DNA of 51,404 nucleotides from an uncultured Candidatus Poseidoniales archaeon (lineage in GTDB: Archaea > Thermoplasmatota > Poseidoniia > Poseidoniales > Thalassarchaeaceae): the NCBI GenBank assembly GCA_902514485.1, contig CABXQY010000002.1, forward strand, positions 1 to 51,404, read 5' to 3'. A program made the position numbers and the translations under genes. The notes beneath the pieces are model-generated. The model was not told where the DNA came from. It saw only the letters and a list, made by a program, of their open reading frames with translations, and searched no databases. Positions 5,917 through 27,925 of this stretch are shown one piece after another (the stretch's first letter is position 1; each line of letters begins with the position of its first letter).

Positions 5917-6477
5917 CTAAAAAAAGTCTATTCCAGTACCGTGACTGAATTGTTCCATCTTCCATTCACCGACTAAGTATTGCAATTCTATTTTAGAATC
6001 CTCTTTATTATTTTTAGTATATTGTAACTCAATATCTATTGTATAGTTTTCCCAAACAGATTCGCCAATTATTATTAGTTCTAAAGCATCACCAGAAACT
6101 GAACTATGTGCAGGAAGAGAAGATTTATTGAATGTAGTTCTATCTATCTCAATATTATCTGAATCTATAAACCGAATGATTAGAGTTAAGTCACTGATAT
6201 CTCTACTTCCATCATTATCAATCTGAGTTAGTATCACATGGCCTGAACTACTCTGGATATAAACAACATCAATTGTTACCTTTTCATATGGAACAACCCA
6301 AGTTAAAGCTACGAAAGTGGCAGCAAATAGCATTAGAGCCACGAATGACACTAGAATTACTCTCAATGGAGATATACGATCCATTGAATCTTCTAATCTA
6401 ACTAAAACCTCATGCGCAAACTCTTCATCAAGAGTTTCCTCTACTTCTTGATTACGTGATTTCTCAAGCAAGCCCAT
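5917..6477 (-). CDS. Small single-pass membrane protein, translationally coupled to the upstream giant ORF
   Basis: 186-aa ORF. Its ATG (6475-6477) directly abuts the TGA (6478-6480) of the upstream gene, reading TGAATG on the coding strand. It has one TM (VILVSFVALMLFAATFVALTWVV) and a ~120-aa ectodomain. No family was recognised. Confidence 0.6.
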   Translation of the reverse strand: MGLLEKSRNQEVEETLDEEFAHEVLVRLEDSMDRISPLRVILVSFVALMLFAATFVALTWVVPYEKVTIDVVYIQSSSGHVILTQIDNDGSRDISDLTLIIRFIDSDNIEIDRTTFNKSSLPAHSSVSGDALELIIIGESVWENYTIDIELQYTKNNKEDSKIELQYLVGEWKMEQFSHGTGIDFF

Positions 6478-16015: not shown

Positions 16016-16041
16016 TGGTCCGCGCTCCCGGACTTGAACCG
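16016..16041. repeat. att copy 1: 26-nt direct repeat identical to the 3' end of tRNA-Tyr (antisense)
   Basis: TGGTCCGCGCTCCCGGACTTGAACCG is identical to 19846-19871 and 27822-27847. Identity with copy 2 extends over 39 nt (16011-16049 = 19841-19879). Confidence 0.9.
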
Positions 16042-16171
16042 AAGTCCGGCAGGTAAGGAGGCATTTCTCTTACTGAGGGAGATATCTACACAGTATTTGG
16101 AAGATATTCGTAAAGGTAAAACTGGAACTGTAAAGCAGCTGCTGACTTTGCTTTCAGGGGTGAAACAATGA
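16016..16171 (+). pseudogene. Relic integrase C-terminal fragment, int(C)-like and AT-rich
   Basis: The frame entering the repeat as WSALPDLN continues RSPAGKEAFLLLREISTQYLEDIRKGKTGTVKQLLTLLSGVKQ to the TGA at 16169-16171. It has the same length as the tail at 19870-19998 and 23 of 43 residues are identical. No matching int(N) lies upstream of the next att copy. Confidence 0.7.
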
Positions 16172-16174
16172 CAT

Positions 16175-18979
16175 TTATTCAGTTTCATTTGTGTCATTGA
16201 GAACCCATTCAAAAAATGTCTCTAAACTAGGAAGGAGAGATGCACCGGAATCAGTCAATTTGTACACAACTGTCGGAGGTACAGTCTCAAAATCTGTTCT
16301 TTCTACTAGATTATGGTCCTCTAATTCACCCAGTCTTCTTGTTAGTGTGGTAGAAGAGGTATCAACTCTATTTTTTAATTCTGTAAATCGTATTGGATTT
16401 TCTTCTGAATGCAATGTATGAATAATTTGAACCATTTTTGATCTAGAAAGAAGTGTCAATAGTTCATCTGCTTCAACATCTTGTTTCATTATTATGGAAT
16501 CTAATCGTGACTTGGGGGATCTTATTGCAGCCGTACCGACTAGAACCAATACCATAGCGAACACTATTATCGCTCCAAAGATTGCACTGCTTTGACCTAA
16601 AATAACTGAAGGTCCACTGCCATCAACATTAGAGCTATCATCCTGTAAAGGTGTATCTTCAACTGGAGTTTCTATGGTTTTATCTACTGTTTCTTCCACA
16701 GGTTCTTCCACAGGTTCTTCCACAGGTTCTTCCACAGGTTCTTCCACAGGTTCTTCCACAGGTTCTTCCACAGGTTCTTCCACAGGTTCTTCCACTGGCT
16801 CCTCCACAGGTTCTTCCACTGGCTCCTCCACAGGTTCTTCCACTGGTTCTTCTACAGGTTCTTCTTCTGTTGGCATCAGTATTTTATCGATAATATAAAT
16901 CACACCATTTTCTACTCCTTGAGAATAAAGAATCTTTGCCTCATTAACGAAAATATTACCTTCACAATCATTTGTAATGGTTATCGGAAACGAATCCGTA
17001 GTTTCCATGTCGAACTCTGTAGGTGTGCATTCATCAGAGAATGATAATACCCAGTCAAATGAAATATGATTGAGAAGGATTTCAGACAATCCTTCGAGTT
17101 TCTGGAGACTATCATAATCGTCAAGATCTATTCCAGCTGCAGCAAATGCTTCATCTGTTGGAGCAAATATTGTCATCCCCATCTGAGGACTATTCTCTAC
17201 ATTAATATCGTCCATCAACATGGTCATTCCCAAAGCATCCATTAAATCTCCAAATTCTCCATCATTCTCTAGGTTGGATGGGATATCAAATCTAGGATTG
17301 AACCTTGGCTCATCATTATTCGGTGGCGTGAAATTAAAGCTTGAAGGAATTAGAACGCTATCAATGACTTGAATCATGCCGTTATCTGTAGCTGAAGAAA
17401 AAGAAGGCCAATCGGTAGTCTCGGAGAATCCATAAACTCGATTATCTGTATCAATGACATTAGCCTGATTAACTGTAACATTTCCTTGACAATCATTTGA
17501 AATTATGACGGTCTCTGTCCAAGAGCTGTAGTTAAATGGATCTGCATATTCTCCATTTTGCATTGGCGTCCAGTCTGTAGTGTAAGGCTGGCAATAAGGT
17601 TCGTATTCGCCACTCGAACTGTTGTAGGCCATTCCCATGTCCAATCCATATGGCCCTGCAAAAGTTACATGATAGAGCAAGACTTCTGTCAATACATCGA
17701 TCCCCTCTGGAGAATCAAAATCATCTAGATAAATGCCAGTGGCATCGAAAGCATCGTTGGTAGGAGCAAATACAGTATATCCCATCTGAGGAGTGTTTTC
17801 TGGACTAAGAACTTCTGTTAGATTAGTCATCTCTAAGGCTTGTAATAGCGTGCTAAAGTAGGGAGAATTTTGAAATGCCCACAAAACAGTATCGTGCTCA
17901 CTGATTCCATATTCATCTATCTCTAATTTACTCTGATCGTCATTTAACTCAAACCAATGTTCCCAGGAGTCTTCGGGGTATACAAAAGTATAGTCAAGGC
18001 AGTAATTTGCGTCCAAATCTGCTTCCAACCAGTCACCTCCTACTTCTGTAGCGTAGAATGCGTGCATTATGCAAATCTCTTCTGAGCCGCCTAGATAAGA
18101 CCATGAAGTGAGATCTTCATTTGTTCCAGCCGGAATGTATGATGTACCTTCTCCTTGGAAATATCCTAGAATGTTGCATCCCGAAGAATGAGCCATGCCT
18201 ATGTTATTTGCTGTTGAAACGGAAAAGCTAGCATCTTCTGCAGCACCTCCAAATCCATAATCACATAGCATTGATTGTACCGATATATCGAAAGCGGTTA
18301 CGTCTACAGATGTATCAATGGTCAGTACCATGGTTTCATTAGTTACATCACCAAAGCCGACGATCACTTCTGAGCTTGAATCCGATCCATCCACTACTTC
18401 TGAGTTCGCATATGGATTTTCTACCTCAGGTTCGCTTTCACCATCATCAAGTTCATACCATACATCATTCGGCCATTCAGTTTCATACCGAGTATAAGTC
18501 AGACAATCATTGGGATCAAAGTCTGCTTGTCGAGTTTCGAACTCCCCCTCAGTTAACATGACCGTATAGGACGCATTCCCGATGCATACCTCTGGGCTAT
18601 TAGATTGATAGTAGAAGGATGTGAGAGTATCATTACTACCTGAGGGGATCCATCTTTCTCCTTGCGCCCCGTAATAGTATCCTGAAGTAGAACATCCAGC
18701 ATAGAGGATGCTGACAAACAAATCATGTTCTTCAGAGAGTCCGCCCCATGATTGTACCCCACAATAAATAGACCCAGAATCCCAAACAAATGTTACGAAG
18801 TATGCATACACATCTACTGAGGTATCCATTGTTAGTACCATTGTATCATTAGTAACATCACCAAAACCAATAGTCACTTCTGAGTTTGAATTCGATTCAT
18901 CTACGTCAGCAGATACCTGGGATGCAGGAAGGGCAATCATCATTAAGCAAATTAATAGTACTCTCAATTGGGACATCAT
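16175..18979 (-). CDS. Type-I membrane protein: two N-terminal repeat modules + two FAS1 (fasciclin) domains + (EEPV)n linker + TM + cytoplasmic HxlR-type winged-helix DNA-binding domain
   Basis: 934-aa ORF with signal peptide LLICLMMIALPASQVSA. It has two paralogous modules (SEVTIGFGDVTNDTMVLTMDTSVDV and SEVIVGFGDVTNETMVLTIDTSVDV). FAS1 motifs occur twice (TVFAPTNDAFDATG..IQVIDSVLIP and TIFAPTDEAFAAAG..VIYIIDKILMP). After the TM (AIFGAIIVFAMVLVLVGTAAI), the last 115 aa carry an HxlR pattern: RFTELKNRV..SSTTLTRRLGELEDHNLVERTDFETVPPTVVYKLTDSGASL. Confidence 0.85.
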   Translation of the reverse strand: MMSQLRVLLICLMMIALPASQVSADVDESNSNSEVTIGFGDVTNDTMVLTMDTSVDVYAYFVTFVWDSGSIYCGVQSWGGLSEEHDLFVSILYAGCSTSGYYYGAQGERWIPSGSNDTLTSFYYQSNSPEVCIGNASYTVMLTEGEFETRQADFDPNDCLTYTRYETEWPNDVWYELDDGESEPEVENPYANSEVVDGSDSSSEVIVGFGDVTNETMVLTIDTSVDVTAFDISVQSMLCDYGFGGAAEDASFSVSTANNIGMAHSSGCNILGYFQGEGTSYIPAGTNEDLTSWSYLGGSEEICIMHAFYATEVGGDWLEADLDANYCLDYTFVYPEDSWEHWFELNDDQSKLEIDEYGISEHDTVLWAFQNSPYFSTLLQALEMTNLTEVLSPENTPQMGYTVFAPTNDAFDATGIYLDDFDSPEGIDVLTEVLLYHVTFAGPYGLDMGMAYNSSSGEYEPYCQPYTTDWTPMQNGEYADPFNYSSWTETVIISNDCQGNVTVNQANVIDTDNRVYGFSETTDWPSFSSATDNGMIQVIDSVLIPSSFNFTPPNNDEPRFNPRFDIPSNLENDGEFGDLMDALGMTMLMDDINVENSPQMGMTIFAPTDEAFAAAGIDLDDYDSLQKLEGLSEILLNHISFDWVLSFSDECTPTEFDMETTDSFPITITNDCEGNIFVNEAKILYSQGVENGVIYIIDKILMPTEEEPVEEPVEEPVEEPVEEPVEEPVEEPVEEPVEEPVEEPVEEPVEEPVEEPVEEPVEETVDKTIETPVEDTPLQDDSSNVDGSGPSVILGQSSAIFGAIIVFAMVLVLVGTAAIRSPKSRLDSIIMKQDVEADELLTLLSRSKMVQIIHTLHSEENPIRFTELKNRVDTSSTTLTRRLGELEDHNLVERTDFETVPPTVVYKLTDSGASLLPSLETFFEWVLNDTNETE
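16691..16870. repeat. 12-nt tandem repeat (about 15 units) encoding (EEPV)n within the FAS1-HxlR gene
   Basis: TTCTTCCACAGG is repeated head-to-tail, with a few CACTGGCTCC variants near the 3' side. On the coding (minus) strand it gives EEPVEEPVEEPV... Confidence 0.9.
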
Positions 18980-19292
18980 AACCTATCTCATCTACTTACC
19001 CCATATAAAGAACCGTTTTCATAGTAACAGACTCGTTACTGCCCTAGTAACATACCCGTAACCATTAAAATTTTATCAAAAAGTCATATTCTAGAGAAAT
19101 ATTTCAATTTCATGGAAATAATTTATCTCATAGTATGTCTTTAGTTTTCGGAAAAATTATCTGCTCGATTGAGCGCCCACAAGAGGTGTACTCAGCGATT
19201 TGGCCAATAGATATTGAGGTGTGAATGACATTTGCTCAATGATCGTTGATAAATAAACAAGTCTCTTTAAGCGAAAGTGTGAAGCCAAATAC

Positions 19293-19754
19293 ATGGATTT
19301 GTATGACTTTTCTTTCTTTTTCTCTACAATGTGGGTTGGACCTTTTTGGTTTGCGATGTTGTTATTCCCTGAACATGAAATGACTAAAAAAGCCCTCAAA
19401 GGTCCTTGGTTTTTCCTCGGACCACTAATTGTTTGGTGGCTAGTGACCATCGCTAATCCACAAGCAATGGTTGACTTAGCTAAAGATGCAGCAAATCCAA
19501 ATGCAATCCTTGACGGATTAGCTGCGATTATGGGCAGTCGACCCGGAGCTTCTGCAGCATGGGCTCACATGGTTGCTGGTGACATCTTCGTCACACGGTG
19601 GATCTGGCAGCGCTGCCTCAAGTATGACACTCCTCGTTGGATTGCTGCAACTTCGGTTTTCTTTGGCGTCATGCTGATGCCTATTGGATTAGCAATGTGT
19701 GCAATCCTAGTTAGAGATAAACAAGAAACCTCAGCGGCGCCAATTGAAGTCTAA
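19293..19754 (+). CDS. ABA4-like / DUF4281-like membrane protein
   Basis: 153-aa ORF with an ATG start and four hydrophobic segments. AAWAHMVAGDIFVTRWIW resembles the W-x-H-x(3)-x-D-x-F-V-x-RWI signature I associate with the ABA4-like family. This is a motif-level call. Confidence 0.55.
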   Translation: MDLYDFSFFFSTMWVGPFWFAMLLFPEHEMTKKALKGPWFFLGPLIVWWLVTIANPQAMVDLAKDAANPNAILDGLAAIMGSRPGASAAWAHMVAGDIFVTRWIWQRCLKYDTPRWIAATSVFFGVMLMPIGLAMCAILVRDKQETSAAPIEV

Positions 19755-19845
19755 GATTTCGATATAAATAGCCCCACCACACCTGTAACGCACTTGCCAG
19801 ATTTTATTGCAATAAAATCCTAAAGTAGAGATTATGATGATTTTT

Positions 19846-19871
19846 TGGTCCGCGCTCCCGGACTTGAACCG
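19846..19871. repeat. att copy 2 (attL of the 8-kb element)
   Basis: TGGTCCGCGCTCCCGGACTTGAACCG is identical to 27822-27847. Confidence 0.9.
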
Positions 19872-20001
19872 AAGTCCGGTACCAGATGAGGCGTTCGTGC
19901 TCCTGAGGGAGTTGTCACGACAGTGCCTGGAGGAAATCCAGAGGGGCAGAACTGCAACTACTAGGCAGCTGCTCTCTATGCTTGCGGAGGTGAGAGGATG
20001 A
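19846..20001 (+). other. int: int(C): detached 3' end of the element integrase gene
   Basis: It reads WSALPDLN|RSPVPDEAFVLLRELSRQCLEEIQRGRTATTRQLLSMLAEVRG, with the TGA at 19999-20001. The codon usage is GC-rich like int(N). Joining base 27821 to base 19846 gives one continuous ORF. Confidence 0.8.
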
Positions 20002-20054
20002 CCTCAAACTTGGCAAGGAATTTCTTGGCAAAACATACGATCTGTGAGATAATA

Positions 20055-20122
20055 TGGTCAACCATAGAAGGTAACCATGGTTATTTTTCATCTCATGGTT
20101 GTCAGGTTGCAAACAACCATGG
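20055..20122. promoter_or_regulatory. Cluster of four (C)AACCAT(GG) half-sites, a candidate operator or iteron
   Basis: The copies are CAACCAT at 20059-20065, the perfect palindrome TAACCATGGTTA at 20072-20083, and the inverted pair CATGGTTG (20094-20101) / CAACCATG (20114-20121) with a 12-nt spacer. The cluster lies between the int(C) stop and the RBS (GAGGTGA, 20133-20139) and ATG of the next ORF. Confidence 0.4.
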
Positions 20123-20143
20123 AATAATTTTCGAGGTGATTGT

Positions 20144-20896
20144 ATGATACGCTTCAATCCGGATACTGAAAGGAAGTTGAAAGAAGATTTGGCAAATGTT
20201 GGCAAAGCAAACCAGGGTTACAACATCTATGCTACCGTCAAAGGTTCGGCCAATCATCGAAGGATAGGAACCTTGGATTCGCAAAGAACGGCGATAACCT
20301 TCGATGGTACGAACAACCTTGCACCCATCATCAAGAAAGCGGAGTTGGAAGAAGGTGCTGTTGTTGGGGATGTTGCACTGGTCCCAATCCCGGTGGAGAC
20401 TATCCAATCCGCAGCAGGAAGGCTGAGCGAGACCAGGCGTGGCAAGGCAAGGAGTAACCTACTATCATCCATCAAGTCCCTAATCCAAAGAGGCGTGAAG
20501 ACGAATCCGACCAAGGACCCACTCAGGGTGATTGAGGAGAAGGACAGGGAGATCGATCATCTGAGGAGGATCATCAACGCCAACAACGGGCTGTATGCAG
20601 ACCAAATCGCGAGGGGGATGATGATTCCAAGCGTGGATGACTACCCATTCGATCCGAAGAAGCTCGTTCGCCTCGCCGATGGGTTCGATGGGGTGGCAGT
20701 TGAGATGGAGAGAAACAAGCTGAGGATTTACTTCGTAGAGGGAAACTATGCAGGTGAGTCAGGCATTCCCTCCATGACGGGCAGGCAGAGGGAGATGCGC
20801 AGGGCAATCAACCGTGGATGGGTGGAGGTCAGGCTCTGCCATCTGATATTGCATTCTGATGGTAGTCATGAATGGGAAATCACGGAGGAGCGATAA
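20144..20896 (+). CDS. Hypothetical protein (element-borne, GC-rich)
   Basis: The ATG at 20144 is preceded by GAGGTGA 4 nt upstream. It encodes 250 aa (MIRFNPDTERKLKEDL...). The composition is GC-rich like the integrase, and no motif was recognised. The ORF-track start at 20099 lacks an RBS. Confidence 0.6.
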   Translation: MIRFNPDTERKLKEDLANVGKANQGYNIYATVKGSANHRRIGTLDSQRTAITFDGTNNLAPIIKKAELEEGAVVGDVALVPIPVETIQSAAGRLSETRRGKARSNLLSSIKSLIQRGVKTNPTKDPLRVIEEKDREIDHLRRIINANNGLYADQIARGMMIPSVDDYPFDPKKLVRLADGFDGVAVEMERNKLRIYFVEGNYAGESGIPSMTGRQREMRRAINRGWVEVRLCHLILHSDGSHEWEITEER

Positions 20897-20940
20897 TTTG
20901 GTTAATTTGATAGCCATCAGGCGTTTAGAATTTGAATAAC

Positions 20941-22935
20941 ATGGATGGGGATAAAGTTGATTCCTATGAAAAAATCCCAATGGGATATTGGAAAAATCCC
21001 GACAACCATCTACTATGGTTTGAAGATTTTAGACGTCATTATGAATTAACCACATTCGAGAGTTTATACACTATTAATCAGAAGATGATTCGAGATTTTA
21101 ATGGAATCACATTAGTAAAAGAATATTATAAATCAATAATAAATTTGGTGAAATCGCTATATCCTGAATATGAATGGAAATCCTACAAATTCCCAAGACG
21201 GGCCAATGGTTATTGGGAGATTGAACGTCATCGTATAGAATGGTTTGAAGACTTTAGAAAGCACTATAATTTGGGATCATACAACAGCCTCTATGATATT
21301 AATTCTAAAATGATTGATGATTATTATGGTAAGACATTGAGAAATAATTACTACAAATCAATATTTATCATGGTACAATCACTTTGTCCTGAATTCGAAT
21401 GGAAATTTTACAAATTTCGTTATCTCAAAGGGCACTGGGGGGAGATAGAAAATCAAAAGTTATGGTTTGAGGACCTCCGTGATTTTTACGGTTTAACAAC
21501 AGTTGAGGATATTTATTCCCTAAATTTGAGGATGATTACTGATTTTTATGGGATCACATTAGTTAAGGAATATTATGGATCAATCCTGAATATGGTTGAA
21601 TCAATCTGTCCTGAATACGAATGGAAATTTTACAAATTTAGAGGTTCGAAGGGGTACTGGAGCGATCTTGAAAACCAAAGAATATGGTTTGAAGATTTAA
21701 GGGAGAACTACAATCTAACAACATCTGAGAGTCTTTACCAGATTAATAGTAAAATGATAAATGAATTCTATGGTGGTAATATTTGGAATTTCTACTCTAA
21801 AATACCTGAATTAGTTATGGCTCTATGCCCTAATCATGATTGGAAATTCTACAGATTTAGAGGTTCGCAGGGACACTGGAGTGATATTGAAAACCAGAAA
21901 TTATGGTTTAATGATCTAAGAGAACACTATGGGTTTGATTCAAACGAGGACTTGTACGATCTTACTGTGTCCAAAATTTCAGATTTCTATGGGATTACTT
22001 GTGTTGTTGCCCTCTATGACGGATCCCCGAGTGAATTAGTGCGAGCTTTGATCCCTGAATACGATTGGAAAATCTACAAATTTTCGAATACACCTCAGGG
22101 GTACTGGGACGATCGGAAAAACCTTCAATCATGGTTTGAGGACATGAGGAGGCATTATGGGTTTAACAAAAATGAGGACCTGTATAACATAAACCTGAAG
22201 ATGATTTTGGATTTCCATGGTAGGACTCCAATTTCAAAGTTTAACGATTCAAAAATAAATCTCATTAGACATCTAATCCCAGAATTTGATTGGAAGGAAT
22301 ACAAATTTGTTCAAACGAGGAAGAATTATTGGGATGATATCGAGAACCAGAAATCATGGTTCAGAGACTTCAGAGAACACTATGGATTGGATACATACGA
22401 GAGCCTTTACGATGTCAGTTCAAAGATGATAAGCGACTACTATGGAAGTGGGTTACTGACCAGGACAAAAACAAATTACGGAGGAAGCCCGTCTTTATTC
22501 GTCCCAACTATGTGTCCAGAGTATGACTGGGACCTTTCTAAATTCGCCAGTAACAGAAAAACGCAGAAATCCCTATTCAAAATTCTAAAGCAGAAGTTTC
22601 CAGATGCGATATGGGAATACAGGACCGAGGTTCGTTGGGATTTTAGGAACAAGATAGGGTACGATATTTTTGTTCCCTCAATGAATCTGGCCTTTGAGGG
22701 ACAGGGCCATCAACACTACATTCCAATAGAGATGTGGGGAGGTAGTGATGCTTTAACAAAGCAAAAACAAAGGGATGAGCAAAAGTCAGATTTGGCTCAG
22801 GAACTGGGGATAAGATTGGTTATCGTTCCTTTCTGTGATCTGGATCCTGAATTACCCAAATGGCAATCCAGCTGGGAGTCATTAGTTGAAATTTGCAAAT
22901 TACAGGGAATAAATCTGAGCTTGAATGCTCTGTGA
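20941..22935 (+). CDS. Seven tandem ~75-aa repeats fused to a C-terminal Vsr/DUF559-like (PD-(D/E)xK-type) nuclease domain
   Basis: The ORF-track start at 20932 is TTG; the first ATG is at 20941. The repeats span 20980-22560, with consensus GYWxDxENQKxWFEDLRxHYGLxTxESLYxINxKMIxDFYGxTL..YY.S...LV.SLCPEYEWKFYKF. The C-terminal 124 aa read SLFKILKQKFPD..GYDIFVPSMNLAFEGQGHQHY..QRDEQKSDLAQELGIRLVIVPF. This matches the D..(V/F)E.(D/Q)G..H...D..R...L...G..V.RF layout of Vsr/DUF559-type endonucleases. Confidence 0.75.
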   Translation: MDGDKVDSYEKIPMGYWKNPDNHLLWFEDFRRHYELTTFESLYTINQKMIRDFNGITLVKEYYKSIINLVKSLYPEYEWKSYKFPRRANGYWEIERHRIEWFEDFRKHYNLGSYNSLYDINSKMIDDYYGKTLRNNYYKSIFIMVQSLCPEFEWKFYKFRYLKGHWGEIENQKLWFEDLRDFYGLTTVEDIYSLNLRMITDFYGITLVKEYYGSILNMVESICPEYEWKFYKFRGSKGYWSDLENQRIWFEDLRENYNLTTSESLYQINSKMINEFYGGNIWNFYSKIPELVMALCPNHDWKFYRFRGSQGHWSDIENQKLWFNDLREHYGFDSNEDLYDLTVSKISDFYGITCVVALYDGSPSELVRALIPEYDWKIYKFSNTPQGYWDDRKNLQSWFEDMRRHYGFNKNEDLYNINLKMILDFHGRTPISKFNDSKINLIRHLIPEFDWKEYKFVQTRKNYWDDIENQKSWFRDFREHYGLDTYESLYDVSSKMISDYYGSGLLTRTKTNYGGSPSLFVPTMCPEYDWDLSKFASNRKTQKSLFKILKQKFPDAIWEYRTEVRWDFRNKIGYDIFVPSMNLAFEGQGHQHYIPIEMWGGSDALTKQKQRDEQKSDLAQELGIRLVIVPFCDLDPELPKWQSSWESLVEICKLQGINLSLNAL

Positions 22936-23104
22936 TTAGATTGTGTCCCAGAACACCGGGCTCCACTCAAGCTCAGCCGAGGTCAAACCCATGATTCCAC
23001 ATTTGCAGCACCTCTAACTCTGAAGGCAGCTCCCGTTGCACAGCCGTTGAAGGAATTACCGATACCCCCTACGCCAATGAGTTCAAAGAATGATTTACCT
23101 TATT

Positions 23105-25156
23105 TTAGTACTTCATCAACTTCTTTAGATTCCTAGAATAACGCCTAACATCAAACATGGGTAATGAATTCCTTAACCATGAAGTAAATTCAGATGGGAC
23201 TGGAATAATGATTTTTTCACCTCTTCTTTTGGGGCCTATACTTTCTGGGATTAGATCCATCTGTCTGTTTACTTCATATCTATCTTCGTTATTTGTAAAG
23301 GATAAGTACAGTTCTTTCTGTGGAGTGACTCGCCAATTAACATCACCGTTGTTTATCATAGATAGCCAATCAAGACCATTTCCATCGACGACTTTTTCGA
23401 GGGGTTGATTAGGAAAGAAATCAGGTATTTCGATACCGGCAATCTCGTACAGTTCCGTCATAACTAATCGACCTATGTTCATACAATCAGTATGGTCATA
23501 TTTATCGTCAATTCCATTGTTAAGCAATTCTAAATATTTCTTTGAAAAATATAAAAATATCGGGTTTTCTTCACTCATTATTTTAGAAACATGTTTGATA
23601 TTAGCTGTATTATCTTCGAATCTAGCATCCATAACGACTTCTTTCATTCTACCTTTCAGTTGTCCTTGTGGTATTCTTTTATTCGAGGTTACAATTAGTT
23701 GACTATGATTTTTTCCTGATTCCCACCAATTATCCCAATAGGAACGTACAATTTGATCCATGTATCTCTTACCCCATTTCGAATCACTTATATCATCATA
23801 AATTATTGGGAAAAGAGAACTCCAGGTTAGTAAATTCTTAACTTTTGTAGCAGAGAAATCATCATCATCATATGCTGCAACTTTGTTGTTGCTTCCTGTC
23901 AATAGTCTACTACAATATTGTAATAGATATGTTTTCCCATTTTTTGTGTTACCATAAATAGCTAGAGGTTTTGGTCCACGCTGATATTCCCAACCTAGGA
24001 TTCTTTTGCCTTGTTTCATGTATGCGTGATGGAAAGGAGATGTCAAGAAATACAACATCACTTCGTATATACTCATCTTAGCAAAACGAGGATTCTTACA
24101 ACTAGCTCTATCTATAGTCTCGACATATGAGTGAATTCCATTGATTCCTTTTTGGATTTCAGCAACATCATAGTTAGATGCTGTTCTGTTAATTGTCTCA
24201 CTACCGACCCTAAGTGATACAAAGTCATCATTCACGGTCATTAATGGGAATGTGCTAACTCTAGTATCAAGAAATGGACGTGTTGTAGCCCTAATTTTTC
24301 TACCCTCTCTTTGGACACCTGCTGGTGCTAAAATTCTTACAACTTCTTCTAAAACTGCTTCATTGGCCTCTGTTGTCAATTCGGTCATGATGATATCAGG
24401 ATCTGTGGAATCATTCAGTGCTCTTTCTTGGAACTCGTGAATGATAGCATGTACTTTAGTTACATCTGCTGATGATGATGAACCAGTGTAAGATACCCAG
24501 CGCTCAACAACTTCAATATCTGGAGCGTCATCTTTGTTTAGTAGGTCTACCAATTCGTCTAAATATTCCTCAGAATTTGAATGATACCAGTAATAGGTCT
24601 CACATAATTCCAGATATTCATCAGAATTTTTATATTCTCCTTGGATATTACGCACTCGTACTTGATTAGATTGTTTTCCAGATATACCTGAACCTCTTGA
24701 AGTCAGATTAGCTGTACCAAAGATATCTGAAAACTCGTTATCTTTCTCTGCTAATATCCACTTTTCATGGAAGGTTCGATTATTTTTTGGTACTCTAACA
24801 GTTAAACGGCCTTCTTCTATTAGTTTGGCAAGTCTAAGGAAAACCTCGGGTTCTGTGCTAGATCGATTCTTTGTAACAACTGAATCTCCAACAATAATTT
24901 CTGCTTTTTGAATGCCATATAAATCAAATAAATCAACAATGAAGTCTACTCTTTGGACATACATTACCATTCTAATTTCATTAAATCCTTCGATATGAGT
25001 CTGCAATGGTCGCTGCGGAGTTACTCTGAATATCTTTGATTCGAGAATCTCAAACTCAGGTTTTTTTGGTTTAATATCAGGGCTGAGATCACCCCAAAGT
25101 TTTCTCTCGTTTGTTGTACTGGTTTCTTCCTCAATTTTTTCTAATTTATTTTCCAT
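23105..25156 (-). CDS. PLD-family (single HKD) nuclease domain fused to a D5/P4-like superfamily-3 helicase; putative element replication protein
   Basis: 683-aa ORF. The HKD motif is FHEKWILAEKD..FGTANLTSRG (aa 129-155). Walker A is AIYGNTKNGKTYLL (aa 399-412) and Walker B is LFPIIYDD (aa 448-455). SF3 motif C is QLIVTSNKRIP (aa 486-496). Confidence 0.75.
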   Translation of the reverse strand: MENKLEKIEEETSTTNERKLWGDLSPDIKPKKPEFEILESKIFRVTPQRPLQTHIEGFNEIRMVMYVQRVDFIVDLFDLYGIQKAEIIVGDSVVTKNRSSTEPEVFLRLAKLIEEGRLTVRVPKNNRTFHEKWILAEKDNEFSDIFGTANLTSRGSGISGKQSNQVRVRNIQGEYKNSDEYLELCETYYWYHSNSEEYLDELVDLLNKDDAPDIEVVERWVSYTGSSSSADVTKVHAIIHEFQERALNDSTDPDIIMTELTTEANEAVLEEVVRILAPAGVQREGRKIRATTRPFLDTRVSTFPLMTVNDDFVSLRVGSETINRTASNYDVAEIQKGINGIHSYVETIDRASCKNPRFAKMSIYEVMLYFLTSPFHHAYMKQGKRILGWEYQRGPKPLAIYGNTKNGKTYLLQYCSRLLTGSNNKVAAYDDDDFSATKVKNLLTWSSLFPIIYDDISDSKWGKRYMDQIVRSYWDNWWESGKNHSQLIVTSNKRIPQGQLKGRMKEVVMDARFEDNTANIKHVSKIMSEENPIFLYFSKKYLELLNNGIDDKYDHTDCMNIGRLVMTELYEIAGIEIPDFFPNQPLEKVVDGNGLDWLSMINNGDVNWRVTPQKELYLSFTNNEDRYEVNRQMDLIPESIGPKRRGEKIIIPVPSEFTSWLRNSLPMFDVRRYSRNLKKLMKY

Positions 25157-25494
25157 GTTCTAATCACCTTGGCTTCTTGCGTCGAATCCCGAGGTAGCCA
25201 ACATCGGGCTTTGTTGGCCGCATATGTCGGGATATAAAGATTAAGTAAAGCAAGAAATTACTAATCCCTTTAGGGGATTATACTCAAAACGTGTTTCAGA
25301 ATATTCTTGTTTCTTCCTTAATTACACCTAATCGGAAGTGGTACCCATGTGGCTACTCCTAGAAATTATGTCATCTGATACTATATTCAGAAGGAACTAA
25401 TGAATGGGAGATAGTTGAGAATTCCAAAAATCCCATATAAACGTACTTCTCAAAGTACAAATTTAGCAGATATTAAAGTTATAATTTTAACACT

Positions 25495-26202
25495 TTAATT
25501 TTGTATCCTTTTGGTGCTTGGGGAGCCTATACCTTTAACTCCATCCGTTCTCAAGATTTCTCTTAGCTTTTCGGCTTCTTCTTGTTCCAATTGCCTTTGC
25601 TCAGTTTTAGCCTTCTTATCGGCTTCTTCTTCCTTCTGTTTCCGTTGGATAATAGTATCTACTCCTTGTTCGGAAATCCCATCAATGATCATTTTAGTTG
25701 CTTCAACATTATTCAGATATTTCTCGACTAAGCGTTTAGCCTCCTCAATTGTTGTATCTTTTTTGCCCACAGACTCCATCAGAGTGTAATGTTTCTTATT
25801 TTCCAAAATAAACTCACAATCCTCGATTGAAAGTTTATCTTTGTGATTTGGCTCTAAGAGAAATCGTTTAATTGCATCGATGGTTGATTTGTTACTAACG
25901 AGTTTCTTGAAAAATCCATTTGCATATGCTAAGTCGTCAAAGTTTGTTTTTACCGGATTTGCTAGTTGATGTACTTCCTCGGCTATTTTTTGATTTTTAC
26001 AGAAATCTCTGAATGGCTTCTCCTTAGCGGCCTTATCTTTGGCTCTCTTTTCTTCTTCTTTTCTCCGATAAATATGTGCATGCACATGACAATAACCACC
26101 GTCATTTTTAGTTGCAGGAAGTTTGCAAGGTCTTTTGGCTTCGAAATGCTGAACAATGTGCTTGCAGGCGGATTTTGGATCTCTTCGTCGCCGCGGAGTC
26201 AC
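25495..26202 (-). CDS. Basic protein with an N-terminal Cys/His cluster and K/E-rich coiled-coil segments (putative DNA-binding)
   Basis: 235-aa ORF with a GTG start. The N-terminus reads RRRRDPKSACKHIVQHFEAKRPCKLPATKNDGGYCHVHAH (C-x12-C-x11-C-x-H-x-H). Charged stretches follow: KEEEKRAKDKAAKEK and QRKQKEEEADKKAKTEQRQLEQEEAEKLRE. Confidence 0.55.
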   Translation of the reverse strand: MTPRRRRDPKSACKHIVQHFEAKRPCKLPATKNDGGYCHVHAHIYRRKEEEKRAKDKAAKEKPFRDFCKNQKIAEEVHQLANPVKTNFDDLAYANGFFKKLVSNKSTIDAIKRFLLEPNHKDKLSIEDCEFILENKKHYTLMESVGKKDTTIEEAKRLVEKYLNNVEATKMIIDGISEQGVDTIIQRKQKEEEADKKAKTEQRQLEQEEAEKLREILRTDGVKGIGSPSTKRIQN

Positions 26203-26576
26203 AAAACTCTACGCTAGGATATGCGTTAGAAAGTTATCTCCTTTGAATATCTGTACTTACTCATTTCAATTACCTCGGAGTAATTCGGTAGTCATATCTC
26301 TCAGCATTACCTTAAATTCATCTGATCTCTCTTTCTCTCCTTGCTCAAATAAATAATATTCAGATCAATGGAATGGTATTTTTCGATATAAAAAATGATA
26401 ATTAATGAGTGGATATTAGTTGATAATTGGATTTTTTAGTAGCACTACACATTGTAGAAGAAGTAATTGAGAATCCCAACGGCATTGTCGTTTGAAGCAA
26501 TAGGCATTCATGTTCAAACTCTGCATCATAGTACTGACAATAACCTTTCATACCTTCTCTTCGCTTCCAATATTCC

Positions 26577-27914
26577 ATGCCAGAGATACAGCCATGTAAT
26601 ACAGCCAGCCAAGATGAATACCCATACTGGGTCTCCGATGGAATGGACCAAGGAGAACCCTCGATTTACGATAATGTGATAATCTGGCTCAGAAGCCCTA
26701 GAAGATGGAAGGACAGGAATCTGAAGCGCTACAAAAACATCAGGTATTCGGCTCAGAAGTTCAGGCATACCCTAAGCAGCTTTACTCCCCACGACTTGAG
26801 AGACGATCAGAGGTATATCGAGTTCATCGAGTCATTACAGAGTGAGATTGAGAGTTCCGATCTGGCGCAAACGACTCTGGACGGGTACCTCGGCTATCTG
26901 ACTGGCAAGGTGTTGAAAAATGGAGAGGTCAATCCCCGGATAGTCGAGGAAATCAAAACCCAAATTTTTCTCATTAAGAAGGGGCTGAAGAGGAGAGAGG
27001 TTTTCCATAGGGGAATCGAGGAGGACGAGATCGTCGAGTTCATGAGGTCCCTAGACGAGATGTGCGAGAACCCAGAGACCGCCCCGAACCTCTCGAGGAT
27101 TGCGAACCCAAATTCCTCGAACGCTAAGTCAAAGCGGACTAGCCACCACCTGCTACTAGCACTGAGGGCGTATGCGTACCTGACTCTGGTAAGCGCAGGC
27201 AGGGCAAATTCTATCCGCCGAATCAGGATTTCAGAAGTTAATGAGGACTTTTTCATCAGAGAAATAAGCAAGATGAGAACTTACTCGGAGGCGGTCCGCA
27301 CCAGCATGCCCAAGTGGGTGTTCCAGAGGGTCGAGCCTTACCTAGAATACTGCAGGGAGAACCACCCGGATGCCATATTCCTGTTCAGCGAAGACGAGAA
27401 CAAAAGAGGGAGGGGGACAATCAACCCAAAGACTCTCCAAGAAATAAAGAAAGGTGCGATGAAGAATATCGGAATGGAGCCGACGAGCGCTGGCGGACTC
27501 TATAGGCTTCACGACCTGAGAACGGTTTGGTGCGATTGGATGTACAAGGGAGGCGCCTCAGTGGAGCAGATGTCCGTGTTCCTAGGCCACTCCTCCCCCA
27601 AAGTGACCACCAAGTACTACTTCGCACCGAAACACAAGGAGAGAATGAGACAGGAAGGATGGGAAGCAGGTATGAAAGGACTTGAGGCTCTCTTACAGAT
27701 ACGTGAGAATGCGGATAGGAAAATAGAGGATTTGTACAGGCAACTGCATGAAATCGGCTACTTCTCAGATGGGAAAGGAGGAGGAGTATACCCTGACTGC
27801 TGGGATGAAGTTGATGATAATTGGTCCGCGCTCCCGGACTTGAACCGGGGACCCCCTGATGGCTGCCTACAACCATGTGTTTCCAGTCTACAGTCAGGTG
27901 CTCTAGCCAACTGA
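26577..27914 (+). CDS. int: Tyrosine recombinase/integrase, int(N) form; the last 30 codons are read from the antisense strand of tRNA-Tyr
   Basis: 445-aa ORF. The catalytic boxes are LVSAGRANSIRRIRISE (Arg), LHDLRTVWCDW (HxxR) and FLGHSSPKVTTKYYF (His and the nucleophilic Tyr). The frame crosses the att core as WSALPDLN at 27822-27845 and stops at 27912-27914 inside the tRNA gene. Confidence 0.9.
   Translation: MPEIQPCNTASQDEYPYWVSDGMDQGEPSIYDNVIIWLRSPRRWKDRNLKRYKNIRYSAQKFRHTLSSFTPHDLRDDQRYIEFIESLQSEIESSDLAQTTLDGYLGYLTGKVLKNGEVNPRIVEEIKTQIFLIKKGLKRREVFHRGIEEDEIVEFMRSLDEMCENPETAPNLSRIANPNSSNAKSKRTSHHLLLALRAYAYLTLVSAGRANSIRRIRISEVNEDFFIREISKMRTYSEAVRTSMPKWVFQRVEPYLEYCRENHPDAIFLFSEDENKRGRGTINPKTLQEIKKGAMKNIGMEPTSAGGLYRLHDLRTVWCDWMYKGGASVEQMSVFLGHSSPKVTTKYYFAPKHKERMRQEGWEAGMKGLEALLQIRENADRKIEDLYRQLHEIGYFSDGKGGGVYPDCWDEVDDNWSALPDLNRGPPDGCLQPCVSSLQSGALAN
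27822..27847. repeat. att copy 3 (attR), within the intact tRNA-Tyr
   Basis: TGGTCCGCGCTCCCGGACTTGAACCG is the antisense of the T-loop, 3' T-stem, 3' acceptor strand, A73 and CCA. Confidence 0.9.
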
Positions 27915-27925
27915 GCTAAGCGCGG
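27822..27925 (-). tRNA. tRNA-Tyr (anticodon GUA) with a 27-nt intron at the canonical 37/38 position and an encoded CCA
   Basis: The minus strand folds by hand. The acceptor is CCGCGCT/AGCGCGG and the D arm is GCTC-AGTTGGCTA-GAGC. The anticodon stem is CCTGA/TCAGG and the loop is CTGTAG|intron|A, with anticodon GTA at 27889-27891. The intron is 27861-27887. The variable loop is GGGTC, the T arm is CCCGG-TTCAAGT-CCGGG, the discriminator is A, and CCA follows. The C1-G72 pair is the archaeal/eukaryal tRNA-Tyr identity pair. Confidence 0.85.

What the first reader, a model, noticed from the sequence alone, without database searches (positions are those of the whole stretch)
19846..27847. 8-kb integrated element in tRNA-Tyr whose integrase gene is split by its own att site, but at the 3' end so int(N) keeps all catalytic boxes
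The 26-nt string TGGTCCGCGCTCCCGGACTTGAACCG occurs at 27822-27847 (antisense of the tRNA-Tyr 3' part) and at 19846-19871. The tyrosine-recombinase ORF 26577-27914 crosses the right copy in frame (..DDNWSALPDLN|RGPPDGCLQP..) and terminates 30 codons after the start of the copy, inside the tRNA antisense strand. At the left copy the same frame (WSALPDLN) continues for 43 codons to the TGA at 19999-20001. Joining 27821 to 19846 restores one uninterrupted int gene, so attP lies inside int. This is the hallmark of SSV1-type partitioning integrases. In SSV1 the split detaches the catalytic part. Here the Arg box, HxxR, GH and KYY all remain in int(N), and only the tail is swapped for a tRNA-antisense-encoded peptide. 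The integrated copy might therefore still be active. No capsid-like gene is present, so the element looks plasmid-like. I do not know of a described element of this architecture in this type of marine archaeon.
Basis: partly seen in the sequence, partly recalled or inferred. Interest (0 to 1): 0.8.

Follow-up and report, generated by a model that had tools for sequence, protein, structure and literature searches.

The report
Integrase that swaps its tail on integration
An 8-kb mobile element sits in the tRNA-Tyr gene of a Marine Group II archaeon, and its attachment site lies inside the last tenth of its own integrase gene, so integration keeps the catalytic part of the enzyme and removes a conserved 40-residue tail, an arrangement not found in the literature searched.

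Summary
The 26-nt tRNA-Tyr 3' end is repeated at 19846 and 27822.

Contigs from strains with an identical FtsZ have the left flank joined directly to an intact tRNA-Tyr. So 19846-27821 is a clean 7,976-bp insertion.

The integrase ORF crosses the right repeat. A conserved tail of about 40 aa begins at the left repeat with no start codon of its own. It evolves as coding sequence (pN/pS 0.37). In all 7 complete elements found it is in the same frame as the integrase, although two different frames cross the same att core. Every reconstructed gene is exactly 466 aa.

All catalytic residues stay in Int(N). The enzyme is XerA-like (PF00589), not SSV-type (PF16795).

The family is confined to Poseidoniales and always sits at the tRNA-Tyr/ftsZ hotspot, next to many integrase-less remnants.

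No circular copy with the intact gene was found. One 734-nt contig carries the joined junction. Whether the truncated enzyme is active is untested.

Verdict: a new variant of the 'suicidal integrase' principle, probably of independent origin. Interest 0.65.

The parts
19846..19871 (+). attL core: copy of the tRNA-Tyr 3' end. The identity with attR is 27 nt (19845-19871). Together with the next 8 nt it forms the dyad CCGGACTT-GAACCG-AAGTCCGG.
   Evidence: In empty-site contigs the host flank to its left joins directly to the tRNA.
19846..20001 (+). int(C): att-encoded segment plus the conserved two-helix-like tail (WSALPDLNRSPVPDEAFVLLRELSRQCLEEIQRGRTATTRQLLSMLAEVRG*). It has no conserved start codon of its own.
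   Evidence: (pN/pS 0.37)
20002..20143 (+). Conserved spacer between the tail stop codon and p265. Invariant motifs: TTGGCAAG..CTTGGCAAAA, GGTCAACC, ACCATGGTT, AACAACCAT, and a GAGGTGA ribosome-binding-like site. Candidate arm-type or regulatory sites.
   Evidence: alignment A3
20144..20896 (+). p265/p250: the second backbone gene of the family, always directly downstream of attL. Function unknown.
   Evidence: 28 loci at 73-92% identity; 17 protein clusters, all named hypothetical; no family hits; structure model unusable
20932..22935 (+). Cargo: 667-aa protein with about eight repeats of about 60 aa and a C-terminal HNH/homing-endonuclease-like region.
   Evidence: Not found in the other loci.
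23105..25156 (-). Cargo: 683-aa protein with an HKD/PLD-like motif near the N-terminus and a Walker A motif (GNTKNGKT).
   Evidence: sequence; weak DrmC hit, E 0.006; homologs at 97-98% identity only in L059 and L070; no PDB sequence relative
25495..26202 (-). Cargo: 235-aa lysine/glutamate-rich protein, function unknown.
26402..26578 (-). Small ORF (58 aa) divergent from int. Weakly conserved upstream of int in 7 other loci.
26577..27821 (+). int(N): 415 codons holding the whole tyrosine-recombinase catalytic domain (R209, K232, H312-x-x-R315, H338, Y348), a long helix and an acidic Gly-rich linker.
   Evidence: PF00589 at residues 195-349; invariant columns; pN/pS 0.19 among integrated copies
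27822..27847 (+). attR core. The int ORF reads on through the tRNA antisense strand to the stop at 27912-27914 (21 non-native residues after the core-encoded segment).
27822..27925 (-). tRNA-Tyr(GTA) gene with a 27-nt intron and encoded CCA. It is the integration target and is left intact by the insertion.
16016..16171 (+). Outer (third) att copy followed by a second, diverged tail ORF (tail_A): the left end of an older insertion, or a secondary att site.
   Evidence: The same structure is present in L012 and L010. In L116 an element sits at this copy.
16172..19845 (.). Segment between att copies 1 and 2. It carries host-type genes: a 934-aa fasciclin/HxlR protein on the minus strand and a 153-aa ABA4-like protein. 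In empty-site strains the ABA4-like gene is the native neighbour of the tRNA.

Best explanation
Window 19846-27847 is a cryptic integrative element of a family specific to Poseidoniales (Marine Group II archaea).

**Free form (inferred).** The element is presumably a circle. Its XerA-like tyrosine integrase is a 466-aa protein, and codons 416-424 of its gene are the attP core. That core is a 26-27-bp copy of the 3' end of tRNA-Tyr, read antisense.

**Integration.** Recombination with the chromosomal tRNA-Tyr gene next to ftsZ rebuilds the tRNA and cuts the int gene near its 3' end. Int(N) keeps the N-terminal domain, the full catalytic domain and the long post-tyrosine helix. It then runs into the tRNA antisense strand: 21 foreign residues in frame a, as in the window, or 3 in frame c. 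The conserved 40-residue tail, the conserved spacer and the backbone gene p265 end up 8 kb away at attL, without the int promoter.

**Consequence (inferred).** Integration is therefore a switch between two integrase isoforms, Int-466 and Int-445/427. It probably also uncouples p265 from int transcription.

**What is shown:** the precise insertion, the att repeats, the reading-frame continuity and the coding nature of the tail.

**What is inferred:** the circular intermediate, and any functional difference between isoforms. My best guess is that the tail-less enzyme keeps catalytic competence, and that the tail modulates assembly, arm binding or direction rather than chemistry.
For: - **Clean insertion.** The insertion is 7,976 bp. 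L011, L015 and L018 align with the window up to 19871 and resume at 27807-27821.
- **att repeat.** The exact repeat is not expected by chance. The target is tRNA-Tyr.
- **Catalytic domain.** It lies entirely upstream of the core.
- **Tail.** There are 62 distinct DNA versions with a fixed stop position. pN/pS is 0.37 in frame against 1.3-1.4 out of frame, and third codon positions carry twice the entropy. The sequence upstream of the core is not conserved in attL ORFs.
- **Frame matching.** Two reading frames cross the same core. In 7 of 7 elements with a complete int the tail is in the matching frame, through compensating 1-nt indels, and all joined proteins are 466 aa.
- **Joined junction.** L143 carries int 3' end, core, tail, spacer and p265 as contiguous DNA, 94.8% identical to the window's predicted joint.
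- **Distant relatives.** Integrases at 39-59% identity, including Poseidoniaceae loci, also read through the tRNA 3' end.
- **Integrated int genes are not decaying.** pN/pS is 0.19.
- **Precedent.** The same alternate-frame behaviour is documented for pT26-2-type suicidal integrases (PMC7253208).
Against: - No contig or protein with an intact 466-aa gene was found among 5.8 billion clustered proteins, 1.84 billion representatives, IMG/VR or 120 junction contigs.
- L143 is a deletion derivative and could be a tandem junction rather than a circle.
- Most inserts at this site lack int yet keep the tail. Part of the tail's conservation could therefore be historical, or act at the DNA level as arm sites.
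- Both structure predictions failed, so nothing is known about what the tail does.
- No experiment bears on the activity of either isoform.
Confidence: 0.8

Rival explanations
1. Truly suicidal variant. The tail is essential, for example for tetramer assembly or arm binding, so the integrated Int-445/427 is inactive. The element is then trapped unless a full-length integrase is supplied in trans by an incoming relative, as proposed for SSV, pTN3 and pT26-2.
For: - The tail is strongly conserved, so it matters in some state.
- The site is littered with integrase-less and decayed inserts and captured genes, as expected for trapped elements.
- The literature model for suicidal integrases is of this kind (PMC8371274).
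Against: - All catalytic residues and the post-tyrosine helix remain in Int(N).
- Integrated int genes are under purifying selection.
- Empty sites exist in strains with an identical FtsZ. These may, however, never have been occupied.
Confidence: 0.35
2. The tail is not part of the integrase. On this view int naturally ends at or just after the core, as the frame-c form does in the chromosome. The conserved stretch after attL would be an independent small gene, or a DNA-level arm or regulatory region that happens to be open.
For: - No full-length 466-aa protein exists in any database searched.
- Gene callers annotate the tail as small ORFs of 51-106 aa.
- The adjacent spacer has invariant DNA motifs.
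Against: - The small ORFs have unrelated N-termini and no conserved start.
- Variation is codon-position specific, and pN/pS is 0.37 only in the int-continuous frame.
- The tail frame follows the int frame in 7 of 7 complete elements, with a constant total of 466 aa.
- L143 shows the continuous ORF.
Confidence: 0.07
3. There is no mobile element. The repeats would be duplicated tRNA fragments, and the 8 kb between them ordinary variable chromosome.
For: The segment between copies 1 and 2 (16016-19846) does carry host-type genes.
Against: - There is a precise presence/absence polymorphism bounded by the repeats.
- A tyrosine recombinase abuts attR in every occupied locus.
- The backbone genes are at 50% GC against 39% for the host.
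- The same backbone carries different cargo in different strains.
Confidence: 0.01

Closest known systems
SSV-type ('suicidal', type I) archaeal integrases: SSV1/2, pTN3, pT26-2 (PMC7253208, PMC8371274)
   Same: - attP lies inside the integrase ORF.
- The target is the 3' part of a tRNA gene antiparallel to int.
- Integration splits int into int(N) at attR and int(C) at attL.
- The same att core is read in alternate frames, with compensating indels.
- Tandem and decayed copies and captured genes occur at the site.
   Different: - The protein family differs: PF00589/XerA-like, with no PF16795 signal.
- The split is at residue 416 of 466, downstream of the catalytic tyrosine, so Int(N) keeps the whole catalytic domain. 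In the known families Int(C) carries it.
- The hosts are mesophilic marine Poseidoniales, not hyperthermophiles.
Integration-dependent immunity of mycobacteriophages BPs, Brujita and Charlie (PMC3694055, PMC4557955)
   Same: attP lies within the 3' part of a gene, so the free and integrated genomes express proteins that differ only at the C-terminus. Integration itself is the switch.
   Different: - There the gene is the repressor, and the removed piece is a degradation tag. Here the gene is the integrase itself, and the role of the tail is unknown.
- That system is bacterial; the family here is archaeal and unrelated.
Archaeal XerA and classical (pNOB8-type/lambda-like) tyrosine integrases
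   Same: XerA is the closest sequence relative: 4a8e at E 0.003 and NCBIfam XerA at E 1e-5. The catalytic R-K-H-R-H-Y set is complete and stays intact after integration, as in classical integrases.
   Different: - Classical integrases have attP outside the gene and are unchanged by integration.
- This enzyme has a C-terminal extension of about 115 residues after the tyrosine, and that extension contains the att site.
Cryptic integrated elements of mesophilic archaea (Thaumarchaeota, PMC6563490) and Charybdis elements of Poseidoniales (bioRxiv 10.1101/2025.08.03.668216)
   Same: - They are small integrase-bearing elements at tRNA genes with no recognisable virus or plasmid hallmark genes.
- NitEve-E3 has a split SSV1-like integrase.
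- Charybdis clade P integrates next to tRNA genes in MGII archaea.
   Different: - NitEve-E3 is SSV1-like.
- Charybdis elements are about 4.6 kb, abundant in IMG/VR, and defined by a double Greek-key Gp3. This integrase has no relative in IMG/VR, and the elements here are 5-10 kb with a different backbone (p265).
- None of the contig prefixes I tried occur in the Charybdis main text. A relation was not properly tested.

Membership tests
SSV-type / suicidal integrases | attP core lies within the integrase ORF, so int is partitioned into int(N) and int(C) on integration | tested here: met
   The ORF crosses attR. The tail begins at attL in the matching frame in 7 of 7 complete elements, and the joined length is always 466 aa. 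The joined junction is seen in L143.
SSV-type / suicidal integrases | Target is the 3' part of a tRNA gene antiparallel to int | tested here: met
   tRNA-Tyr(GTA) on the minus strand and int on the plus strand; the core is the last 26 nt of the tRNA including CCA.
SSV-type / suicidal integrases | Phage_integr_3 (PF16795) domain and membership of the monophyletic SSV/pTN3/pT26-2 superfamily (PMC8371274) | tested here: not met
   Only PF00589 is found, even at E<=10. The PDB profile search finds XerA 4a8e and no SSV1 integrase chain.
SSV-type / suicidal integrases | Int(C) carries the catalytic domain, so both fragments lack a complete enzyme | tested here: not met
   The catalytic domain is at residues 195-349, and R209, K232, H312, R315, H338 and Y348 are all in Int(N). 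Int(C) is a 51-residue tail.
Tyrosine recombinase superfamily | PF00589 match above the gathering score, with a complete catalytic residue set | tested here: met
   44.5 bits against a cutoff of 27.1. The catalytic columns are invariant across 13 sequences down to 44% identity.
Classical (pNOB8-type / lambda-like) integrases | attP lies outside the int gene, and the int ORF is unchanged by integration | tested here: not met
   The last 51 codons are exchanged on integration.
Integration-dependent C-terminal switch (mycobacteriophage BPs type) | attP in the 3' part of a gene, so free and integrated forms encode proteins with different C-termini | tested here: met
   Int-466 (joined) against Int-445 or Int-427 (integrated). 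The gene concerned is int, not a repressor.
Integration-dependent C-terminal switch (mycobacteriophage BPs type) | The removed C-terminus is a proteolytic degradation tag | not testable with these tools
   Tails end in ..AEVRG..AGVEE or ..SGVKQ. The tail matched no Pfam family at significant E. Stability would need an experiment.
Charybdis elements | Circle of about 4.6 kb encoding the Gp3 double Greek-key protein; abundant in IMG/VR | tested here: inconclusive
   There is no relative of this integrase in IMG/VR. The elements here are 5.2-9.8 kb. The p265 model is too poor to compare, and no Gp3 sequence was available.

The most novel reading that the evidence does not exclude
A second, independent invention of 'attP inside int' in a XerA-like recombinase lineage of mesophilic marine archaea. 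Here the split does not kill the enzyme. Instead it converts it from a tail-bearing form made by the free element into a tail-less form made by the integrated element. Integration would then serve as a built-in control of directionality or expression, replacing a separate excisionase.
Probability: 0.3. Interest if true: 0.85.

Novelty: new variant of a known kind. Interest (0 to 1): 0.65.

Why it matters
Integrases that carry their own target site are currently described as one monophyletic group of hyperthermophile enzymes that destroy themselves on integration (PMC8371274). How such enzymes persist is discussed as a paradox.

This family shows the same principle in an unrelated recombinase lineage, in one of the most abundant archaeal groups of the surface ocean. 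The cut is placed so that the catalytic part survives. That has three consequences:
- It gives a natural comparison for the 'suicide' paradox.
- It suggests a way to couple the integration state to the enzyme isoform without an accessory factor.
- It identifies the tRNA-Tyr/ftsZ locus as a hotspot through which Poseidoniales exchange cargo such as restriction-modification systems.

Poseidoniales are uncultured, and a self-contained int-att module with a defined 27-bp target could also be a starting point for genetic tools.

Tried and rejected
1. I first read 'gattatgatgattttt' left of copy 2 as a remnant of a deleted frame-c int(N). I rejected this because empty-site contigs show it is the native flank of the tRNA. 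Frame-c int genes simply extend the att identity by TTTTT.
2. L027 (6.4 kb, two junctions 6.2 kb apart) looked like a circular contig. It has no terminal overlap, and its right junction is a palindrome.
3. The five int|core|AAGTCC junctions (L003, L104, L116, L128, L129) are frame-mismatched tandem junctions with an older tail, not attP.
4. IMG/VR searches: the junction pattern hit only 3 large contigs, which I did not examine further, and the integrase profile hit none.
5. Structure prediction gave unusable models: the joined Int submitted as a single sequence (pLDDT 38) and p265 with a 13-sequence alignment (pLDDT 45). I did not run fold searches.
6. Searches of Pfam, PHROGs, NCBIfam, PADLOC and PDB gave no function for p265, p235 or p58, and only weak hints for p683 and p667.
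7. The sigma-70 promoter scan is not meaningful for an archaeon.
8. Link to Charybdis elements: the contig prefixes I tried are not in the paper's main text. The question is unresolved.
Full report
**Observation**

None is expected in shuffled sequence.

The right copy is the antisense of the last 26 nt, CCA included, of a tRNA gene on the minus strand. Default ARAGORN reports nothing because the gene has an intron. Rfam scores it at 56 bits at 27825-27925.

ORF 26577-27914 (445 aa) crosses the right copy in frame. At the left copy the same frame continues to the TGA at 19999-20001. Joining 27821 to 19846 gives a 466-codon ORF.

**Is it an insertion?**

Yes. I looked up contigs that encode exactly the window's FtsZ, the gene just right of the tRNA. 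In L011, L015, L017, L018 and L019, the ABA4-like gene (window 19293-19754) and its 3' flank run straight into an intact tRNA-Tyr and ftsZ.

By blastn, L011, L015 and L018 match the window up to 19871 and resume at 27807-27821. The window therefore carries a clean 7,976-bp insertion bounded by the repeat. The hosts are Poseidoniales (Marine Group II), mostly Thalassarchaeaceae (record titles).

**The integrase**

The protein has a PF00589 catalytic domain at residues 195-349. R209, K232, H312-x-x-R315, H338 and Y348 are invariant across relatives down to 44% identity.

It shows no PF16795 (Phage_integr_3) signal, even at E<=10. PF16795 marks the SSV, pTN3 and pT26-2 'suicidal' families (PMC8371274). 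Its nearest solved relative is archaeal XerA (4a8e, E 0.003), and its best NCBIfam hit is XerA. It is not an SSV-family protein.

**Is the tail really part of int?**

A search of 5.8 billion clustered proteins with the joined sequence gave 44 clusters. None has a contiguous tail. They end either in ...WSALPDLNRGPPDGCLQPCVSSLQSGALAN (445 aa, as in the window) or in ...VRAPGLEPGTP (427 aa).

The second ending is the same tRNA and the same att core read in another frame (L001). This gave a test. If the tail belongs to int, its frame must follow the frame of int. The results were as follows.

- **Tail conservation.** The tail is a conserved module of about 40 aa (..EE[PA]F.LLRELS.QCLEDI.KGRTAT.RQLLSMLAGV.E*). 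It occurs in 62 distinct DNA versions, in two frames relative to the core, with a fixed stop position.
- **Coding signature.** pN/pS is 0.37 in frame against 1.3-1.4 in the shifted frames. Third codon positions carry twice the entropy of first and second.
- **Frame matching.** All 7 elements with a complete int have the tail in the int frame: the window and L002 in frame a, and L004, L027, L051, L070 and L123 in frame c. The only mismatch is L121, a decayed element that retains just 25 integrase codons.
- **Constant length.** All 7 reconstructed proteins are exactly 466 aa (415+51 or 416+50). They differ essentially only in the roughly 10 residues encoded by the core. Compensating 1-nt indels lie on each side of it.
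- **No separate gene.** An exhaustive phmmer search of the tail against 1.84 billion representatives found only short ORFs at attL with unrelated N-termini.
- **One joined junction.** The exception among those hits is P0063. Its 734-nt contig L143 reads: p265 3' part, last ~19 int codons, core, tail, spacer, p265. It is 94.8% identical over 537 nt to the window's predicted joint. The joined junction therefore exists physically. It is in a deletion derivative that could be a circle or a tandem.

Badel et al. describe the same alternate-frame and indel behaviour for pT26-2 integrases (PMC7253208).

**What was not found**

No circular contig and no database protein has the intact 466-aa gene. The five junctions with int upstream of an attP-type core (L003, L104, L116, L128, L129) are frame-mismatched. 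By alignment, L116 is an element sitting at the outer att copy next to the old tail_A, so these are tandem junctions.

**Anatomy of the element family**

The backbone is: core, tail, a spacer of about 145 nt with invariant motifs and a GAGGTGA ribosome-binding-like site, p265 (28 loci, 73-92% identity), variable cargo, a small divergent ORF, int(N), core.

In a circle, int, the tail and p265 would be co-directional and adjacent. Integration would therefore also separate p265 from int (inference).

Backbone genes are about 50% GC, against 36-39% for cargo and 39% for the host.

Cargo differs between elements:
- L004 carries a type II restriction-modification pair.
- The window carries a repeat-rich protein with an HNH-like end, an HKD-plus-Walker-A protein with a weak DrmC hit, and an unknown 235-aa protein.

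No capsid and no replication protein was recognised. 'Cryptic integrative element' is a safer label than 'plasmid-like'.

Attachment sites of the attP/attL type contain the perfect dyad CCGGACTT-GAACCG-AAGTCCGG in 64 of 117 distinct junctions. This fits two inverted core-binding sites around a 6-bp overlap (inference from general tyrosine-recombinase knowledge).

**The locus is a hotspot**

Strains with an identical FtsZ carry nothing, a 3.1-kb integrase-less insert (L012-L014, L016), or a decayed insert with an int remnant (L010). Dozens of integrase-less inserts of 0.4-6 kb lie between att copies.

The window's segment 16016-19846 is bounded by att copies. It carries a second, diverged tail and host-type genes, which resembles the 'gene capture' described for SSV-type elements (PMC8371274).

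Relatives at 39-40% identity in Poseidoniaceae also read through the tRNA 3' end, one in each frame. The architecture is therefore old within the order.

**Mechanism and rivals**

- **Shown:** the precise insertion, attP within the int ORF, the catalytic domain retained in Int(N), and integrated int genes under purifying selection (pN/pS 0.19).
- **Inferred:** a circular intermediate, and a functional difference between Int-466 and the integrated Int-445/427.

The main open alternative is that the tail is essential and the integrated enzyme is dead, which would be a classical suicidal outcome. The many decayed inserts fit that view. The intact catalytic domain and post-tyrosine helix argue the other way.

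The idea that the tail is a separate gene, or only a DNA element, is disfavoured by the frame matching and the constant length. A non-mobile origin is refuted by the empty sites.

**Comparison and novelty**

The principle matches suicidal integrases. The family, the position of the split and the host ecology do not. The nearest functional analogy is mycobacteriophage integration-dependent immunity, where attP in the 3' part of the repressor gene makes integration remove a C-terminal tag (PMC3694055).

A split SSV1-like integrase is known in one thaumarchaeon (PMC6563490). Charybdis elements integrate next to tRNA genes in Poseidoniales. In the papers I searched, nothing describes a 3'-terminal split or this integrase family.

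I rate it a new variant of a known kind, with interest 0.65.

Noticed in passing
window 16016-16171: A third exact att copy followed by a second, diverged tail ORF (WSALPDLNRSPAGKEAFLLLREISTQYLEDIRKGKTGTVKQLLTLLSGVKQ*). This 'tail_A' type is common in metagenomes in both frames. It serves as a secondary integration site: in L116, int(N) abuts it.
   Followed up: partly
window 16175-18979 (minus strand): A 934-aa protein with an unusual architecture: signal peptide, two fasciclin domains, PVEE repeats, a transmembrane helix and a C-terminal HxlR-type HTH. It could be a membrane-tethered transcription factor. It lies between att copies 1 and 2 in the window, but to the left of the flank in L002, so the locus is rearranged between strains.
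   Followed up: partly
L027 (reverse strand) about 6246-6300; protein P0018 (44 member sequences): int(N) and core are followed not by the tRNA or a tail but by an inverted copy of the tRNA 3' end and the inverted host flank (TGGTCCGCGCTCCCGG-ACTTGAACCGAAG-CCCGGGAGCGTGGACCAaaaaa). Legitimate site-specific recombination should not make this head-to-head palindromic junction. Its origin is unexplained.
   Followed up: no
window 20002-20143 (alignment A3 columns 156-298): The spacer between the tail and p265 is in places more conserved than the coding tail. It holds a direct repeat TTGGCAAG-N-CTTGGCAAAA, the palindrome TAACCATGGTTA, an inverted repeat CCATGGTTG..CAACCATGG and a GAGGTGA site. These are candidate binding sites or an origin.
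   Followed up: partly
window 20099-20896 and 26577-27821 versus 20932-26202: The backbone genes (p265 and int) are 50-51% GC. The cargo genes are 36-39% and the host is 39%. The cargo looks host-adapted or locally acquired, and the backbone looks foreign.
   Followed up: no
L012 1457-4617, also L013, L014, L016, L046, L091: A 3.1-kb insert with no integrase occupies the same att site in strains with an identical FtsZ. Its attL tail is identical to the window's for 42 nt and then diverges, and its five ORFs have no family hits. It could be a deletion hybrid or a non-autonomous element mobilised in trans.
   Followed up: partly
L004 7657-9643: A 5.2-kb member of the element family carries a complete type II restriction-modification pair as its main recognisable cargo (REase_II E 1e-24, MTase_II E 3e-21). 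These elements move defence genes between Poseidoniales strains.
   Followed up: partly
window 20932-22935: A 667-aa protein built of about eight tandem repeats of about 60 aa (..YWxxxENxxxWFEDxRxHYxLxxxExLYxINxKMIxDFYG..YEWKxYKF), followed by an HNH/homing-endonuclease-like C-terminus. It was not found in any other locus fetched.
   Followed up: no
window 27822-27925 (minus strand): The tRNA-Tyr gene has a 27-nt intron and an encoded CCA. Default ARAGORN misses it, so tRNA-based screens for integration sites in these archaea need intron-aware settings.
   Followed up: yes
window 19834-19845: The host flank supplies two in-frame ATG codons (ATGATGATTTTT) directly before attL. In this strain the orphaned tail could therefore be translated as a 55-aa peptide. 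In other loci the region upstream of the core is unrelated, so this is probably fortuitous.
   Followed up: partly
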